Virus genome (UHGV): UHGV-0229204 | Direction: 5' to 3' (one strand) | Length of the DNA: 11,049 nt | DNA from: a virus | Shown here: positions 5,494 through 10,160 of the stretch, one piece after another | How positions within the stretch are numbered: the first letter of the stretch is position 1 | How the letters are laid out: every line of letters starts with the position of its first letter | Program-made: the position numbers and the translations under genes | Notes under the pieces: generated by a model | Told to the model about the DNA's origin: nothing | What the model saw: only the letters and a program-made list of their open reading frames with translations | Database searches by the model: none

Positions 5494-8400
5494 TTAAACT
5501 CCCTTGATTAATCGCCACAGAGGCGAGCCCGGCATGCTGGCCTGTTCGTTAATGACGCCAGTGATGGCATCCTTAAGCTGCCTGCCTGCTGCTCCAGCAG
5601 TACCCTGACTGGCCGCCTGGGATGATCCGCCCTGAATATTGATATCGCCGAAGTTAACTGAAGGCATACCACCGGAGACCTGAGGAGTGCCAACAGCCCG
5701 AACGCCAAGCGAACCATCAGCGGCGCGCGTAAGCGGCATAATGGCTTCCGGACCAGCTTCGGCAAAAACCCCTGCACCTTTGGCAAAAGCAAACAGCTGA
5801 GGCGTCTGAAAAACGCCATTGCTGTAAGCGCTCAGGGACGGAGAGTCGTAAACATTACCCTTCGCATTAAAGGTAAAGTTCGCGCCAGCATTCTGAATAG
5901 CGGTACCGCTGCTGGCGGTAGCGGCTGACGAGGCACCAAAACTGAACAGTGAACCAATTGAGCTAACGCCATTAGCAACAGCCATATTCACCAGAACGTT
6001 CTGGATAATCTTCAGTACGCTGACGCCCCAGTCCTTCCAGCTATCAACGTTGCCATTGAGCATGTCGGTGATCGTGGTGACCGCGCCACCCATAGCCTGC
6101 TTCATGCCGTCAGCGGCCATGGAAGAATAATCAGTAGCTTCGTCCACCCAGTTCGCATAACCCTCAGACAGTCCCGTCATCCAGTCGTCACGCTGCGCAT
6201 CAGAAGCTGCGTAATATCCCTCCTGGTCGCGCAGGCGCTCATCGAGATAGCGCTTATTAAGTGCCAGTCCCTGCTGATAGAACGTCTCATCGATTTCACC
6301 AGCCTGACGCTGGCGGAGAAGATCGGTATTCTTCTGCTCGAACTCCTTACGCAGATTGAACTGCTCCTGAAGTCTTTCACGGAACCTGGTACCCTGCCCG
6401 TAACCCAGCAGTTGCCCTTCATTAGCTGCTCGGGCGCTGGCGTTACTGTCGGCGAGGTTGGCTTCGTAATTTCGCAGTTGCTCACGTAATTTAACCTGGT
6501 CAATCAGCGCAGCATTCTGCAATAACGTCTTTTTCTGGGCTTCTGTCAGAGAAGCAAGCTCGCCCTGGCTGACCTGGTATTTAACCTTCGCCAGTTCAGT
6601 ATTCTGGCCTTGCAGGGCAATCTGCTCTTTTTGCTGTTTGATCAGCTTGTCATAGGCATCAGCTGTTTTTTCCGCCTCGGATTTCCCGCCCTTATGGCGG
6701 CTTGAGTCACGAATAGCTTGCAACTGCCTGGCTGACTCAACTTCCATGCTGACATACTTCTCACGCCAACCAGCAGGGAGATTAAGGTCAGATGCATCGA
6801 ATTCCGCCTGCTTGCGGGTTTTGTCCAATCCCTTAAGACCGGACAACTCAAGCTGTCGCTGCGCCTTGTCTATAGCTTGCTGCTGCTTATTATCAAGTGC
6901 AGGAAGTACAGGCCCTGCATATTTTGGTGGGGACACTGCTGTAGACTGTCTGGAAACCTTGTTCAGACGGTCATACATCTCTGTAAGAGAACTTACGGCG
7001 CCAGCCATTTCTACTGTTTTATTTATAGCCTGATCAGTTATGTCGTTTATTAACTGTTGTGTTTGCTTTCTTTTATTGAGCATTTGCTCAAGTCGGCCTT
7101 CTTCAACCGCAAGTTCTGAAGCAAACTCTGCTGATTTCTCAACCGCATCGTTATACAGCCATGTTCCATCTGAAGCAGAATTGGCTGCTAATTTTGCGTT
7201 ATAAAGTTGATTGGATAATTCAGCAACTTTCTGCTTCTGCTGTTCAATCGCACTATTTTGAGCATCCAGTGAAATATTCGCCTGTCCAAGGTTGGCGGAT
7301 ATCTGCGTCTGAGACATTGATTTCAGATTATCTCGTACCTGCTCGATTGTGTCCGCATATTGGATTGCAGATTCCCTGGCTTGTTCTTGGCGTTGATACA
7401 TCGTGTACCACGCCCCAGCACCCAACATTAAAATTCCTGGCAAACCACCAACTAACGACAAAAGCCCCGTAGCGCCAGACTTGAATAAATTCATTACCGA
7501 TGTTGATCGGTTGAGTGCTTCTTGCGACGCTGATACTGCTTTATTTGACTGAACGAGAGTGGAATTGGCGGCTATCATTTCACGCCGTTTGGCAATAGAA
7601 TTTTGTGTAGCTGTCGCTTCTGCATTTGTGTTTTTTGCAAGTTCCAACTCGGATAGCGAGAGCTGATAAGCACGCTCGGCAGCAATCGCATCTGCTGCCG
7701 CCTTTCGTTGTGATTGGGTAGCAGATTCAGCCCTTGCAGATGCGAGCGCAATTTCGTTCTTTCTGGCATCTATTAATTGCGCCGTTTGGTTCCCAAGATC
7801 GCCAAACATCCCTCCAAGATAGCGAGCTCCACCTATTGCAGCCAAAGCTCCGGCAGCCGTAGCCACAGTGTCGATATTGTCAGAAACTGTATTCAATACA
7901 GCAACAAGAGCACTTGTCGCACCAGTAGCTTCATTAGCTCCACCTACCCATGCCATGAAAGCATTTTCGACTTTCGTCGTGGCAGCAGAAACGGTCTGCG
8001 GCATTGCCTCAAATTCACCACGCATAGTGCCAAGTTGACTTATCAGGGCCGGGACAACTTTATCTGCGGTTAGCATCCCCTGATCGGCCATTGCCTTCAG
8101 ATCTTTACGAGCTACACCCATCCCAGCGGCCAGCGCACGGATAACTCGATCACCGTTTTCGTTAACAGAGTTGAATTCCTCGCCCCGCAGAACGCCCTGA
8201 GCTAATGCCTGACTAAACTGGGTGATAACAGAACTTGCCTCTGCCGTGCTGGCGCCGGATAGCTTTAGTCCAGTAGAAATGGCCTCGGTTACATCCAGAA
8301 CTTGCTGCGAACTGTATCCGTATTCACGCATTGATGCGGCGGAACGCGCAAAAAGACTCGCATTATCAGAGAAGGCGGTTCCGGTTCGTTGGCTAATATC

Positions 8401-8760
8401 CATCAGCGCCCGCTGAGACTCCGTGAAATCATCAGACGATTGGGAAGCCTGCTTTAGCCTGGCATTAACAGAGCTCCATTCATCGGCCAGCGATATAAGA
8501 TGACCAGTCGCAAATGCTCCAGCAAATGCACCTGCCATTCCCAGCGCTGAGGCCTTCGCGGTGTTTATTTGACTAGTTACCTCAGCTAAGGCACGCTGAG
8601 TTTCACGCGAAGCTGCGGCCGCTTGGCGTCCTCCAGTCTGCATTACCCGGTAATAGTCATTCCCCATTCTTGAAGCACGAGAAATTTCAGACTGAAATGA
8701 CTGAGAGTTTGCAGATATTTTGATGATCAGTTCGCGCAACGTAGCCATATTTTCACCCAT
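5494..8760 (-). CDS. H: Tail tape measure protein, lambda gpH-like (1088 aa from ATG 8760; 1084 aa if the ATG at 8748 is used)
   Basis: Longest ORF in the window. Ala/Gln-rich, coiled-coil-like N-terminal and central regions, and a C-terminal segment (..NWVDEATDYSSMAADGMKQAMGG..VLKIIQNVLVNMAVANGVSSIGS..GTAIQNAGANFTFNAKG..) that matches the lambda gpH C-terminus (..SEWEESATDSMSQVK..VLSMMTEILLKQAMVGIVGSIGS..GTAIQAAAAKFHFATGG..) from memory. Positioned between G-T and M. A T8 run directly abuts the first ATG, so the second ATG (MATLRELI.., preceded by GGTGA) may be the real start. Confidence 0.92.
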   Translation of the reverse strand: MGENMATLRELIIKISANSQSFQSEISRASRMGNDYYRVMQTGGRQAAAASRETQRALAEVTSQINTAKASALGMAGAFAGAFATGHLISLADEWSSVNARLKQASQSSDDFTESQRALMDISQRTGTAFSDNASLFARSAASMREYGYSSQQVLDVTEAISTGLKLSGASTAEASSVITQFSQALAQGVLRGEEFNSVNENGDRVIRALAAGMGVARKDLKAMADQGMLTADKVVPALISQLGTMRGEFEAMPQTVSAATTKVENAFMAWVGGANEATGATSALVAVLNTVSDNIDTVATAAGALAAIGGARYLGGMFGDLGNQTAQLIDARKNEIALASARAESATQSQRKAAADAIAAERAYQLSLSELELAKNTNAEATATQNSIAKRREMIAANSTLVQSNKAVSASQEALNRSTSVMNLFKSGATGLLSLVGGLPGILMLGAGAWYTMYQRQEQARESAIQYADTIEQVRDNLKSMSQTQISANLGQANISLDAQNSAIEQQKQKVAELSNQLYNAKLAANSASDGTWLYNDAVEKSAEFASELAVEEGRLEQMLNKRKQTQQLINDITDQAINKTVEMAGAVSSLTEMYDRLNKVSRQSTAVSPPKYAGPVLPALDNKQQQAIDKAQRQLELSGLKGLDKTRKQAEFDASDLNLPAGWREKYVSMEVESARQLQAIRDSSRHKGGKSEAEKTADAYDKLIKQQKEQIALQGQNTELAKVKYQVSQGELASLTEAQKKTLLQNAALIDQVKLREQLRNYEANLADSNASARAANEGQLLGYGQGTRFRERLQEQFNLRKEFEQKNTDLLRQRQAGEIDETFYQQGLALNKRYLDERLRDQEGYYAASDAQRDDWMTGLSEGYANWVDEATDYSSMAADGMKQAMGGAVTTITDMLNGNVDSWKDWGVSVLKIIQNVLVNMAVANGVSSIGSLFSFGASSAATASSGTAIQNAGANFTFNAKGNVYDSPSLSAYSNGVFQTPQLFAFAKGAGVFAEAGPEAIMPLTRAADGSLGVRAVGTPQVSGGMPSVNFGDINIQGGSSQAASQGTAGAAGRQLKDAITGVINEQASMPGSPLWRLIKGV

Positions 8761-8785
8761 AAAAAAAACCCGCTTGATAGCGGGT
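8761..8785 (-). terminator. Intrinsic-terminator-like hairpin: 7-bp stem ACCCGCT/AGCGGGT, 4-nt loop, then T8 on the minus strand, immediately 3' of the moron ORF and abutting the tape measure ATG
   Basis: Seen directly: plus strand 8761-8785 aaaaaaaa cccgct tgat agcgggt; the minus strand reads ACCCGCTATCAAGCGGGTTTTTTTT followed by ATGGGTGAAAATATGGCT. Confidence 0.6.
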
Positions 8786-8791
8786 CGTGAG

Positions 8792-8980
8792 TTATAAACT
8801 GTCTTTTCTTTTGTGAGCGACTTGTATTAATAAATCTATTTGCGCATCTTGTTTTTTATTTATCTCTTTAAGGGCTTCAACTTGTTCATTTGCCCTTGTG
8901 CTAAACCGTATTAAATAAAAAATCACAATTAGATTTATCAACCAGCCGAATATTCCAAACACTACTACCAGTGGTTCCAT
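8792..8980 (-). CDS. Small single-pass membrane protein (62 aa) encoded by an AT-rich moron between T and H; candidate YebO-like / HK97 gp15-like superinfection-exclusion protein
   Basis: ATG at 8980 preceded by a strong AAGGAGG (4-nt spacer). Product MEPLVVVFGIFGWLINLIVIFYLIRFSTRANEQVEALKEINKKQDAQIDLLIQVAHKRKDSL has an N-terminal hydrophobic helix and a charged helical tail. Local GC is about 30% against about 52-55% in flanking tail genes. Followed by the hairpin + T8. The track ORF 8792..9037 begins at an upstream alternative start with no RBS. Confidence 0.65.
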   Translation of the reverse strand: MEPLVVVFGIFGWLINLIVIFYLIRFSTRANEQVEALKEINKKQDAQIDLLIQVAHKRKDSL

Positions 8981-9004
8981 AACGCCTCCTTTTCTTAAGG
9001 AAAG

Positions 9005-9033
9005 AGCGTATCGCCACATTGATGACATGTGAA
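9005..9033 (-). promoter_or_regulatory. Candidate sigma70-type promoter for the moron: TTCACA, 17-nt spacer, TACGCT on the minus strand
   Basis: Minus-strand sequence TTCACA-TGTCATCAATGTGGCGA-TACGCT lies in the 57-nt T-moron intergenic gap, about 25 nt upstream of the moron RBS. The -10 is a weak match (3/6 to TATAAT). Pattern-based only. Confidence 0.25.
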
Positions 9034-9037
9034 GCAA

Positions 9038-9708
9038 TTATTGTGTCGCAGCTGTAAGAGCAGCCTCAAGCCCTGCAAACGGGTCCTTCGGTGCTGATTG
9101 CTCATCACCACCCCAGCGCAGGATCGCATCGTCCAGCGGTACTTTTGCCCCCTGCGAGCCGTAGATGGCAGAGACGAGCTGGGCTGCCTGAATGTCACCA
9201 CGGATATCGCCAACCGGACTTTGCCTGTCGTACTCAATCCACATCAGAAGCTCGCTTGCCGTCATATTCTGCCGAAGCTCTGAGAGCGTGCGCCCCATCC
9301 GGAGCGCAAGCGACATCAGAAACTTTACGCCGGGGGTTGAGACTTTTCCCGCGCTTCGTCCGCATTGTTGATCAGGTCAAGCGCCTGTTTGAGCAGGCGT
9401 GAATGGACGGGGCCGTAGATTTCACGCACCTGCTCTTCTTCGTCTACGCTGAATACCGGCTGCTTATCGGTGTCACACAGAACGTCAATGAAGAGCACCA
9501 CGTCAGCGCAAAGATTACGGTGTGCCTTTTCCGATACCGACACATTTTCATCATCAGTACCCGCTTTCACCACCTCCTGCCAGCGCAGCCAGGCTTCACC
9601 TGACGGCTCACGCAGAACCACTTTGACGCCCTCCCACTCAGGAACGGCGACCGTCTTATGACGAAATCCCGACATCTTAGCCAGGGCGAGATTTTTAATA
9701 TTCTTCAT
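9038..9708 (-). CDS. T: Tail assembly chaperone G-T fusion, made by a programmed -1 ribosomal frameshift near the end of G; the T segment is ORF 9038..9351 in the -1 frame
   Basis: The downstream ORF (..MSLALRMGRTLSELRQNMTASELLMWIEYDRQSP..) is in the -1 frame relative to G, overlaps the G 3' end, and has no RBS before its internal ATG at 9316. The -1 frame is open from a TGA at 9379-9377 through the G stop. A GGGAAAAG slippery-like run sits at 9343-9350. This matches the conserved G/GT arrangement upstream of tape measure genes. Confidence 0.75.
9325..9708 (-). CDS. G: Tail assembly chaperone, lambda gpG-like (127 aa)
   Basis: ATG at 9708 with GAGAGG 6 nt upstream. Acidic small protein (..VDEEEQVREIYGPVHSRLLKQALDLINNADEAREKSQPPA) located between the major tail gene and the T frame, with the slippery site near its 3' end. 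Confidence 0.8.
   Translation of the reverse strand: MKNIKNLALAKMSGFRHKTVAVPEWEGVKVVLREPSGEAWLRWQEVVKAGTDDENVSVSEKAHRNLCADVVLFIDVLCDTDKQPVFSVDEEEQVREIYGPVHSRLLKQALDLINNADEAREKSQPPA
9343..9351 (-). promoter_or_regulatory. Putative -1 programmed frameshift slippery site, minus strand C GGG AAA AG (zero-frame codons CGG GAA AAG)
   Basis: Seen directly at the G 3' end. Resembles the lambda G GGA AAG site but is offset by one nucleotide and has an extra A. An A-site tRNA-Lys slip from AAG to AAA is possible. Confidence 0.5.
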
Positions 9709-9716
9709 GCGACCTC

Positions 9717-10160
9717 TCAGGAGCCAGACTCGATGTTTTCAGGCTTACCTTTCAGGCGCAGGGAGAACGTTGCCGCAACTACGCCGTTGGTACCGGAAGA
9801 CCAGGTGTGCTGGCGGATTTCAGCCAGGAACTTAAAGCCCTTGCCGGACGGGAAGATAACCTGGAAAGCGTAGGTCGTATCGTTGTCATACGCTTCACGC
9901 AAGGCGTCCTGCGCCGGGTTTTTGTAGAAGTTGCCGGACAGAGAGATTTCTGACGGAGAAGGCAGGCCGTTGATGTTCTCCTGCTCGGTAGAGCAAAGCG
10001 TGGTTACGTCGATATCCTGCTTCTGGCCACCAGTGAACTGAATTTCTTTGATGGTGCAACTCAGATCGAGGAAGGTTGCGGTATCCATCGTTTCTTTGGT
10101 GGCTGGCGCAGAGGAAATAAGGATCTTCGTCAGCTGCGATTTTTCATAAAGTGCAGACAT
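9717..10160 (-). CDS. Major tail tube protein (147 aa), homologous to the lambda gpV N-terminal tube domain, with no C-terminal Ig-like domain
   Basis: ATG at 10160 with AGGAGA 7 nt upstream. ..DNDTTYAFQVIFPSGKGFKFLAEI.. resembles lambda V ..[23 protein letters not shown]... Sits directly upstream of G, as V does in lambda. The stop TGA overlaps the G RBS. Confidence 0.8.
   Translation of the reverse strand: MSALYEKSQLTKILISSAPATKETMDTATFLDLSCTIKEIQFTGGQKQDIDVTTLCSTEQENINGLPSPSEISLSGNFYKNPAQDALREAYDNDTTYAFQVIFPSGKGFKFLAEIRQHTWSSGTNGVVAATFSLRLKGKPENIESGS

What the first reader, a model, noticed from the sequence alone, without database searches (positions are those of the whole stretch)
9316..9379. 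G-T programmed frameshift with a non-canonical slippery sequence
The T frame is -1 relative to G and has no RBS or independent start, so T can only be made as a G-T fusion. The only slippery-looking run in the overlap is GCG CGG GAA AAG (minus strand 9352-9343). This is not the canonical X XXY YYZ heptamer of lambda (G GGA AAG). The zero-frame P/A codons would be GAA-AAG shifting to GGA-AAA, or the shift is a single-tRNA A-AAG Lys slip. The -1 frame is open for only 63 nt upstream of the T ATG (TGA at 9379-9377), so the shift must occur in this short window.
Basis: partly seen in the sequence, partly recalled or inferred. Interest (0 to 1): 0.45.

Follow-up and report, generated by a model that had tools for sequence, protein, structure and literature searches.

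The report
Known HK97-type tail chaperone frameshift site
This is the ordinary, already annotated -1 ribosomal frameshift that joins the two tail-assembly chaperone reading frames of phage HK97 (gp13/gp14), present base for base in a prophage-like HK97-type tail module whose closest G-gene matches are in Enterobacter; its slightly off-consensus slippery sequence (G GAA AAG) is one of several variants the family uses at the same spot.

Summary
On the minus strand, a G-like chaperone gene (9708-9325) overlaps a T-like frame that is -1 to it. The T frame is closed upstream by TGA (9379-9377) and has no ribosome-binding site before ATG 9316. The zero-frame sequence CGG GAA AAG (9351-9343) gives G_GAA_AAG, not a strict X_XXY_YYZ heptamer.

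It is not new. The junction (131 nt, 9420-9290) is identical to phage HK97 gp13/gp14, annotated in GenBank as "translated due to a -1 frameshift". The fusion peptide predicted for a slip at GAA-AAG (...EAREK|VSTPGVKFLM...) is exactly the deposited HK97 gp14 protein.

In 69 distinct junctions of this Pfam family (Phage_TAC_1 + Phage_tail_T), a zero-frame A_AAN Lys or Asn codon (66 AAG, 1 AAA, 2 AAC) always sits at the homologous position. The P-site codon varies: GGA as in lambda, AAA, GAA, GCA or GTA. In some relatives the -1 overlap is only 7 nt, which forces the slip onto A_AAG.

I found no conserved downstream structure or upstream SD-like stimulator. Two relatives with canonical heptamers gave 6-7% frameshifting in a published reporter assay.

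Verdict: a -1 programmed frameshift at G_GAA_AAG. The Lys-tRNA slip AAG to AAA is the essential step; near-cognate Glu re-pairing (GAA to GGA) probably helps. Already known, low interest.

The parts
9325..9708 (-). G-like tail assembly chaperone gene (zero frame), 127 aa, stop TAA at 9327-9325. Homolog of HK97 gp13.
   Evidence: ORF list. Pfam Phage_TAC_1 E = 2.5e-59. PDB 2OB9 'Tail assembly chaperone' E = 3.8e-73. SD GAGAGG upstream, -6.5 kcal/mol.
9343..9349 (-). Slippery site G_GAA_AAG. Zero-frame codons are GAA (9348-9346) and AAG (9345-9343); after the -1 slip they read GGA and AAA.
   Evidence: Sequence. Identical in HK97 and mEp234. All 7 positions invariant in 32 distinct HK97-clade sequences. 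A zero-frame A_AAN is present at the homologous position in 69 of 69 distinct junctions. The junction peptide equals the deposited HK97 gp14.
9038..9343 (-). The -1 frame (T) part of the fusion, read from GTC (9343-9341) to stop TAA (9040-9038). It contains the Phage_tail_T domain.
   Evidence: Translation. Pfam Phage_tail_T E = 7e-20 and E = 4e-19 within the modelled 223-aa fusion. The peptide K-V-x-x-P-G-x-x-F-L-M is conserved in the -1 frame across the family.
9377..9379 (-). TGA that closes the -1 (T) frame upstream. It sets the 5' limit of the window in which the shift can occur.
9314..9316 (-). First ATG of the T frame. It encodes an internal Met of the conserved F-L-M motif and is not a start site.
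   Evidence: No SD-like sequence upstream, best -1.7 kcal/mol. The Met is replaced in Rahnella L051 (FLF) and in KS9 (LEL).
9331..9337 (-). A_CCC_CCG, a second slippery-looking run in the overlap. Considered as an alternative shift site and rejected.
   Evidence: Listed. Broken to CCC CTG in L113 and L133 and changed to CCC CCA in L110. Absent from most of the family. The fusion modelled for this site is not in the protein collection.
9289..9308 (-). Local hairpin UGCGCUCC-GGAU-GGGGCGCA inside the T coding region, starting 34 nt after AAG. Not supported as a frameshift stimulator.
   Evidence: Folds have z-scores of -0.3 to -1.0. RNAalifold finds no consensus structure. No pair changes on both sides, and 76% of cells are paired against 75.9% in shuffles.
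9717..10160 (-). Major tail (tube) protein gene upstream of G. This is context that defines the G/T position.
   Evidence: Pfam Phage_TTP_11 and Phage_tail_3. 92% identical to HK97 gp12 residues 1-145.
5494..8760 (-). Tape measure protein gene downstream of T. This is context.
   Evidence: Pfam TMP_3, Phage_HK97_TLTM and Tape_meas_lam_C.

Best explanation
This is the HK97-type G/GT tail assembly chaperone recoding site.

Most ribosomes translate the G-like gene (9708-9325) to its TAA stop and make a 127-aa chaperone. A minority slip back one nucleotide on G_GAA_AAG (9349-9343) and continue in the -1 frame. They make a 223-aa G-T fusion with the junction ...EAREK|VSTPGVKFLM..., whose C-terminal part is the Phage_tail_T domain.

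The essential event is that the single E. coli-type Lys-tRNA (anticodon mnm5s2UUU) moves from AAG to the fully cognate AAA. The P-site Glu-tRNA moves from GAA to GGA, keeping positions 1 and 3 paired with a G.U at position 2, and this probably adds to the slip. Whether two tRNAs or only the Lys-tRNA slips cannot be told from sequence, because both give the same peptide.

By analogy with lambda gpG/gpGT, the fixed low G:GT ratio lets many G copies and a few GT copies coat the tape measure protein, with the T domain recruiting the major tail protein.

Shown here: gene identities, frame relation, absence of an RBS, identity to the annotated HK97 site, and family-wide conservation of the A_AAN position. 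Inferred: the actual frameshifting and its efficiency in this element, and the role of P-site re-pairing.
For: - The genes are Phage_TAC_1 and Phage_tail_T, and they lie between the tail tube gene and the tape measure gene.
- T is in the -1 frame, closed by TGA 63 nt upstream of its first ATG, and has no SD.
- The 131-nt junction is identical to HK97 and mEp234. HK97 gp14 is annotated as 'translated due to a -1 frameshift'.
- The HK97 fusion modelled with the slip at GAA-AAG is exactly AAF31104.1/NP_037707.1. The two alternative junctions are not in the collection.
- All 69 distinct family junctions carry a zero-frame A_AAN (66 AAG, 1 AAA, 2 AAC) at the homologous position, followed in the -1 frame by the conserved K-(A)-V-x-x-P-x-x-F-L-M-x-L-A-L-R.
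- In L003, L005, L021, L022, L033 and L051 the -1 frame opens only 7 nt before the G stop, so the slip can only be on the final x_AAG.
- G_GAA_AAG and lambda's G_GGA_AAG occur in an otherwise matching context: GTG GAA AAG CCG TAA against GCG GGA AAG CCG TAA.
- The heptamer is invariant in 32 distinct HK97-clade sequences, while 18 of 19 upstream codons vary at their third position.
- Two family members gave 6% and 7% -1 frameshifting in a GST-MBP reporter: A_AAA_AAG TAG (the same sequence as L004) and G_GGA_AAG CCG TAA (L007/L042 type) (PMC3711429, Table S2).
- A_AAG is the most shift-prone Z_ZZN tetramer in E. coli (PMC4066793).
- GAA to GGA re-pairing through G.U has been noted for other tail-chaperone frameshift motifs (PMC10885494).
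Against: - No experiment on this exact motif was available to me. The two reporter-tested relatives have canonical heptamers.
- In one E. coli reporter, tetramers without a stimulator were barely above background: 0.147% against 0.112% (PMC4066793). I found no stimulator here: no significant or covarying downstream structure, no Rfam frameshift element, and no SD-like sequence 8-15 nt upstream, where the best duplex is -3.2 kcal/mol. The efficiency of this site is therefore unknown and could be low.
- Substitutions in the dual-coded stretch after AAG are split about evenly between those silent in frame 0 and those silent in frame -1 (my tally). That test does not discriminate.
Confidence: 0.9

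Rival explanations
1. The -1 shift occurs further downstream on the C-run, A_CCC_CCG (9337-9331), just before the G stop. This would give the junction ...EKSQPP|GVKFLM...
For: It is a zero-frame Z_ZZN run inside the permitted window, and it is present in most HK97-clade sequences.
Against: - C_CCG was only 1.8- to 3.6-fold above background even with a strong pseudoknot (PMC4066793).
- The run is broken to CCC CTG in L113 and L133 and changed to CCC CCA in L110, while G_GAA_AAG stays invariant.
- It is absent from most other lineages of the family.
- The corresponding HK97 fusion is not in the protein collection, whereas the GAA-AAG fusion is the deposited gp14.
Confidence: 0.03
2. T is made as a free 92-aa protein. 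It would start by independent initiation, or by termination-reinitiation coupling, at ATG 9316, which lies 9 nt after the G stop. No frameshift would be needed.
For: The ATG is close to the G stop codon, a geometry that can allow reinitiation without an SD (established knowledge, not tested here). Many automatic annotations call T as a separate 92-aa protein (cluster members).
Against: - There is no SD; the best duplex is -1.7 kcal/mol.
- The -1 frame is open from the Lys codon through the ATG in every family member. The stretch upstream of the ATG encodes a conserved peptide (K-V-x-x-P-G-x-x-F-L-M), even where it lies beyond the G stop.
- The Met is replaced by Phe in Rahnella L051 and by Leu in KS9, leaving no start codon there.
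- HK97, Bcep176 and KS9 are annotated as joined frameshift products.
Confidence: 0.04
3. The frame change is made at the RNA level, by transcriptional slippage of RNA polymerase on the A-run, rather than by the ribosome.
For: Relatives with A8-A9 runs (for example L003, GTT AAA AAA AAG) could in principle also use this route. Runs longer than 7 A are implicated in transcriptional realignment (PMC3711429).
Against: This window has only four consecutive A, far below the lengths cited for transcriptional slippage. The lambda-type G_GGA_AAG (three A) and x_GCA_AAG (three A) members work at the same position.
Confidence: 0.01

Closest known systems
Phage HK97 gp13/gp14 (-1 frameshift; GenBank AF069529, NC_002167)
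   Same: The junction is identical over 131 nt, including G_GAA_AAG, the TGA, the TAA and the ATG. The G-T protein is 92% identical. The gene order is the same, including the gp15 moron and the tape measure gene. The deposited gp14 has the junction predicted here. The gp13 structure is PDB 2OB9.
   Different: The host context differs: the closest G-gene matches among genome contigs (99-100% protein identity) are in Enterobacter assemblies. The neighbouring major tail protein lacks the C-terminal Ig-like domain of HK97 gp12. Nothing differs at the frameshift site itself.
Phage lambda gpG/gpGT frameshift (G_GGA_AAG)
   Same: The position between the V and H genes, the -1 direction and the Lys AAG A-site codon are the same. 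The T domain belongs to the same Pfam family, Phage_tail_T. Some members of this same Phage_TAC_1 family carry exactly G_GGA_AAG at the homologous position (L007, L042-L045, L048). The role of a fixed G:GT ratio of about 30:1 in tail assembly is described in PMC5009743.
   Different: The P-site codon is GAA, not GGA, so P-site re-pairing is near-cognate (G.U at the middle position) rather than cognate. The G domain is Phage_TAC_1, the only Pfam family hit for this G protein; from memory, not tested here, lambda gpG belongs to a different Pfam family.
Z_ZZN tetramer -1 frameshift motifs (A_AAG; for example IS3 and other IS elements)
   Same: A zero-frame A_AAG where only the A-site (or P-site) Lys-tRNA needs to re-pair. 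This is a recognised motif class, and A_AAG is its most efficient member in E. coli (PMC4066793).
   Different: IS3-type tetramers rely on a strong downstream pseudoknot. No conserved structure was found here.
E. coli dnaX frameshift (A_AAA_AAG with an upstream SD and a downstream hairpin)
   Same: The same shift-prone Lys AAG codon and the same -1 direction. Many relatives in this family use A_AAA_AAG.
   Different: There is no SD-like stimulator and no supported hairpin. The product here is an extension that adds a domain, whereas in dnaX the shift leads to early termination (the dnaX outcome is from memory).

Membership tests
G/GT-type tail assembly chaperone -1 programmed frameshift (lambda/HK97 class) | Two overlapping ORFs located between the major tail (tube) gene and the tape measure gene | tested here: met
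   The gene order is V-like 9717-10160, G 9325-9708, T 9038-9316, then tape measure 5494-8760, all on the minus strand.
G/GT-type tail assembly chaperone -1 programmed frameshift (lambda/HK97 class) | The downstream ORF is in the -1 frame and lacks its own translation start signals | tested here: met
   The frame relation was verified. The best anti-SD duplex is -1.7 kcal/mol, against -6.5 and -7.4 for the neighbouring genes. The Met is not conserved in L051 or KS9.
G/GT-type tail assembly chaperone -1 programmed frameshift (lambda/HK97 class) | A slippery sequence in the overlap, conserved among homologs | tested here: met
   A zero-frame A_AAN is present at the homologous position in 69 of 69 distinct junctions. 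The heptamer is invariant in 32 distinct HK97-clade sequences.
G/GT-type tail assembly chaperone -1 programmed frameshift (lambda/HK97 class) | A fusion protein is actually produced at a low, fixed ratio | not testable with these tools
   The only indirect evidence is the HK97 gp14 annotation and deposited fusion, and the 6-7% frameshifting measured for two relatives with canonical motifs (PMC3711429).
HK97 gp13/gp14 protein family (Pfam Phage_TAC_1 + Phage_tail_T) | Sequence membership of both domains | tested here: met
   Phage_TAC_1 scores 199 bits against a cut-off of 25. Phage_tail_T scores 71.6 bits against a cut-off of 25.9. PDB 2OB9 matches at E = 3.8e-73. The tblastn match to HK97 is 92% identical.
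Canonical X_XXY_YYZ slippery heptamer | Positions 1-3 are identical and positions 4-6 are identical in the zero-frame register | tested here: not met
   The heptamer is G_GAA_AAG. Positions 1-3 are G, G, A. The site works like a heptamer with near-cognate P-site re-pairing, but it is not a member of the strict class.
Z_ZZN tetramer motif class (Sharma et al. 2014) | Three identical bases spanning the codon boundary (Z_ZZN), so the tRNA decoding ZZN re-pairs on ZZZ | tested here: met
   A_AAG lies at 9346-9343 in the zero-frame register. The class is defined in PMC4066793.
Stimulator-dependent -1 PRF signals (dnaX, IS911 and IS3 types) | A downstream stem-loop or pseudoknot 5-9 nt after the motif, and/or an SD-like sequence about 10 nt upstream | tested here: not met
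   Folds have z-scores of -0.3 to -1.0. The only stable hairpin starts 34 nt downstream and shows no covariation. There is no Rfam hit. The best upstream anti-SD duplex is -3.2 kcal/mol.

The most novel reading that the evidence does not exclude
Within this one chaperone family the slippery site may exist in two mechanistic forms.

- Tandem-slip heptamers, in which the P-site tRNA can re-pair cognately or through a mid-codon G.U: G_GGA_AAG, A_AAA_AAG and the HK97-type G_GAA_AAG. The G_GGA_AAG and G_GAA_AAG members are always followed by a sense codon; the A_AAA_AAG members occur with either a sense or a stop codon next.
- Single-tRNA A_AAG slips, in which the P-site codon cannot re-pair: x_GCA, G_GTA and A_GAA. 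In all 12 distinct cases these sit immediately before the zero-frame stop codon.

If this pattern is real, G_GAA_AAG would be a near-cognate heptamer that reaches lambda-like efficiency without any RNA stimulator. The family would then be a natural series for measuring how P-site pairing and a neighbouring stop codon set the G:GT ratio.
Probability: 0.35. Interest if true: 0.3.

Novelty: already known. Interest (0 to 1): 0.1.

Why it matters
It matters mainly for annotation. The T frame (9038-9316) should be annotated as the C-terminal part of a 223-aa G-T fusion joined at 9343, not as a separate 92-aa gene, which is how most automatic annotations of this family treat it. For recoding biology the site adds nothing beyond HK97. 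The modest added value is the family-wide table, which shows the same position occupied by canonical and non-canonical heptamers. That table could guide a small reporter series on the contribution of P-site re-pairing and of an adjacent stop codon.

Tried and rejected
- **Downstream stimulatory structure.** I folded 58, 88 and 201 nt (z-scores -0.97, -0.33 and +0.54). RNAalifold on 24 diverse relatives predicted 0 pairs. An explicit test of the 9308-9289 hairpin found no compensatory changes, and pairing equalled the shuffled control. Rejected.
- **Known RNA family.** An Rfam scan of 9000-9750 at E <= 10 gave only two chance-level hits.
- **Upstream SD-like stimulator.** None was found.
- **C-run A_CCC_CCG as the shift site.** Rejected on conservation and on the deposited gp14 sequence.
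- **Independent start of T.** Rejected: no SD, a conserved peptide upstream of the ATG, and the Met missing in two relatives.
- **Synonymous versus non-synonymous tally in the dual-coded stretch after AAG.** Uninformative: about equal numbers of changes are silent in each frame.
- **Literature.**
  - Xu, Hendrix and Duda 2004 (Mol Cell) is not held.
  - A full-text search for the motif string returned only irrelevant papers.
  - A search for HK97 gp13/gp14 frameshift details found nothing specific.
  - I could not confirm from a paper whether the HK97 site itself was tested experimentally, or its efficiency. From memory only, Xu et al. 2004 included HK97.
- **Tool calls that gave nothing.**
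  - The first exact look-up used the window's own fusion and a truncated HK97 fragment; neither was found.
  - The search for related loci with the 9-sequence alignment failed for lack of a conserved stretch. It worked with the 6 enterobacterial sequences.

Full report
**What is in the sequence**

- The minus strand of the window carries a lambda/HK97-like siphovirus tail module.
  - The gene order is: HK97-gp10-like, tail completion protein, major tail protein (9717-10160), a G-like gene (9325-9708), a T-like frame (9038-9316), a small AT-rich ORF (8792-8980), the tape measure gene (5494-8760), then homologs of lambda M, L, K and I.
- G is Pfam Phage_TAC_1 (E = 2.5e-59). T is Pfam Phage_tail_T (E = 7e-20).
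- The zero frame reads GCG CGG GAA AAG TCT CAA CCC CCG GCG TAA.
- The T frame is -1 to it and reads TGA(9379-9377) ... GCG GGA AAA GTC TCA ACC CCC GGC GTA AAG TTT CTG ATG(9316).
- No Shine-Dalgarno sequence precedes ATG 9316. The best anti-SD duplex is -1.7 kcal/mol, against -6.5 for G and -7.4 for the major tail gene.

1. The 12-mer lies at 9354-9343, and the heptamer G_GAA_AAG at 9349-9343.
2. The usable window ends at the G stop, so it is 49 nt (9376-9328).
3. A second slippery-looking run, A_CCC_CCG (9337-9331), also lies in the window.

**It is the HK97 site**

- The 1.5 kb around the finding matches HK97, HK75, HK633, mEp234 and related phages at 93-94% identity.
- The junction itself (9420-9290) is identical base for base to HK97 and mEp234.
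- GenBank AF069529 annotates HK97 gp14 as a two-piece CDS "translated due to a -1 frameshift", overlapping gp13, the "tail assembly chaperone".
- I modelled three possible HK97 fusions and looked them up by exact sequence.
  - The slip at GAA-AAG (...EAREK|VSTPG...) is exactly AAF31104.1/NP_037707.1.
  - The slips at CGG and at CCC-CCG are not in the collection.
- The structure of the G part is solved as PDB 2OB9.
- The closest G-gene matches among genome contigs (99-100% protein identity) are in Enterobacter assemblies.

**Comparative evidence for where the shift occurs**

I collected 134 loci: 10 annotated phages, 44 bacterial genome contigs and 80 viral contigs. After removing two disrupted genes and duplicates, 69 distinct junctions remained.

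- Every junction has a zero-frame A_AAN at the homologous end of G: 66 AAG, 1 AAA and 2 AAC.
- Every junction continues in the -1 frame with a conserved peptide, K-(A)-V-x-x-P-x-x-F-L-M-x-L-A-L-R.
- The codon before the Lys codon varies:

| Heptamer | Distinct junctions | Examples |
|---|---|---|
| G_GAA_AAG | 30 | HK97 clade; a second lineage in Cronobacter, Leclercia and Pseudescherichia |
| A_AAA_AAG | 18 | many enterobacterial and Burkholderia loci |
| x_GCA_AAG | 10 | Klebsiella, Pantoea, Erwinia |
| G_GGA_AAG (lambda's own) | 6 | L007, L042-L045, L048 |
| G_GGA_AAC | 2 | Pseudomonas L053, L054 |
| A_AAA_AAA | 1 | KS9 |
| G_GTA_AAG | 1 | L049 |
| A_GAA_AAG | 1 | L020 |

- In six lineages the -1 frame opens only 7 nt before the G stop, so the slip can only be on the final x_AAG. 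An example is Klebsiella phage ST13-OXA48phi12.4 (GCT AAA GCA AAG TAA).
- G_GAA_AAG and G_GGA_AAG occur in an otherwise matching context: GTG GAA AAG CCG TAA against GCG GGA AAG CCG TAA.
- Within the HK97 clade all seven heptamer positions are invariant in 32 distinct sequences. In the same sequences 18 of 19 upstream codons vary at their third position.
- The C-run is broken in L113 and L133 (CCC CTG) and altered in L110.
- The Met of the F-L-M motif is absent in Rahnella L051 and in Burkholderia phage KS9, so T cannot start there.

**Mechanism**

- The common denominator is the Lys-tRNA slip from AAG to AAA.
- Z_ZZN tetramers are a recognised class of -1 motif, and A_AAG is the most efficient of them in E. 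coli. It reached up to 5.6% with the IS3 pseudoknot but was near background without a stimulator in that reporter (PMC4066793).
- In G_GAA_AAG the P-site Glu-tRNA would re-pair on GGA with a G.U at the middle position. The same GAA to GGA re-pairing has been pointed out for other tail-chaperone frameshift motifs (PMC10885494).
- I found no stimulator: no significant fold, no consensus structure, no covariation in the one stable hairpin (which starts 34 nt downstream), no Rfam family and no upstream SD-like sequence.
- Two relatives with canonical heptamers gave 7% and 6% frameshifting in short GST-MBP cassettes. These cassettes end before the 3' arm of that hairpin (PMC3711429, Table S2).
- The HK97-type motif itself was not among the tested cassettes. 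I could not access Xu et al. 2004.
- The biological role rests on lambda, not on anything tested here: a fixed G:GT ratio, with G binding the tape measure protein and T recruiting the tail tube protein (PMC5009743).

**Rivals**

- A shift on the C-run, independent or coupled initiation of T, and transcriptional slippage are each contradicted by the comparative data. Together I give them less than 0.1.
- Whether one or two tRNAs slip is unresolved, and sequence cannot resolve it, because both routes give the same peptide.

**Verdict**

- The finding is a correct reading of a known feature.
- It is non-canonical only against the strict X_XXY_YYZ rule. The site is the annotated HK97 gp13/gp14 frameshift, and 42 of 69 distinct junctions in this family have non-canonical heptamers.
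- Novelty: already known. Interest: low.
- The one mildly interesting by-product is a family pattern: P-site codons that cannot re-pair are always followed directly by the stop codon (12 of 12), while G_GAA_AAG never is (0 of 30). This is not corrected for phylogeny.

Noticed in passing
window 9717-10160 (-): The major tail protein is only 147 aa. It is 92% identical to residues 1-145 of HK97 gp12 (234 aa) but lacks gp12's C-terminal Ig-like domain (Pfam Ig_3/Ig_2 at gp12 residues 154-218). This is a natural variant without the Ig decoration, and Aeromonas phage AsXd-1, Escherichia phage SaltyDalty and Enterobacter phage LAU1 appear to share it: each matches this stretch in a single piece without HK97's extra ~290 bp.
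   Followed up: partly
window 8792-8980 (-), with a terminator-like hairpin and T-run at 8761-8784: A 62-aa ORF sits between T and the tape measure gene. It has a strong SD (AAGGAGG) and one hydrophobic segment. It matches Pfam YebO-like (E = 1e-9). GC falls to 0.31 there, against about 0.57 in the flanks. It is followed by CCCGC-TATCAA-GCGGG-T8. It corresponds to the HK97 gp15 'moron product'. AsXd-1, SaltyDalty and LAU1 stop matching at about 9042, so they do not match this segment and appear to lack this insert.
   Followed up: partly
related loci L005, L020, L027-L031, L033, L034, L039, L041, L049 compared with the G_GAA_AAG loci: Across 69 distinct junctions, all 12 motifs whose P-site codon cannot re-pair (x_GCA_AAG, G_GTA_AAG, A_GAA_AAG) have the zero-frame stop TAA immediately after AAG. 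All 30 G_GAA_AAG junctions have a sense codon there. This suggests two mechanistic solutions: a slip at a stop codon, or a tandem near-cognate slip. The pattern is not corrected for phylogeny.
   Followed up: partly
L017 (Leclercia adecarboxylata NCTC13032) and L038 (Candidatus Symbiopectobacterium endolongispinus): The G-like genes in these two prophage regions are disrupted, with a premature stop or frame break upstream of the slippery site. They are probably decaying prophages.
   Followed up: no
L010 (Burkholderia phage KS9) and L051 (Rahnella sp. PCH160): The conserved Met of the F-L-M motif at the start of the T domain is replaced (L-E-L in KS9, F-L-F in Rahnella). No start codon is available there, so expression must go through the fusion.
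   Followed up: partly
window 9289-9308 (-): A stable local hairpin, UGCGCUCC-GGAU-GGGGCGCA, lies within the codons for the conserved L-A-L-R-M-G-R-T peptide. It is conserved only as far as the coding sequence is, with no compensatory changes.
   Followed up: yes
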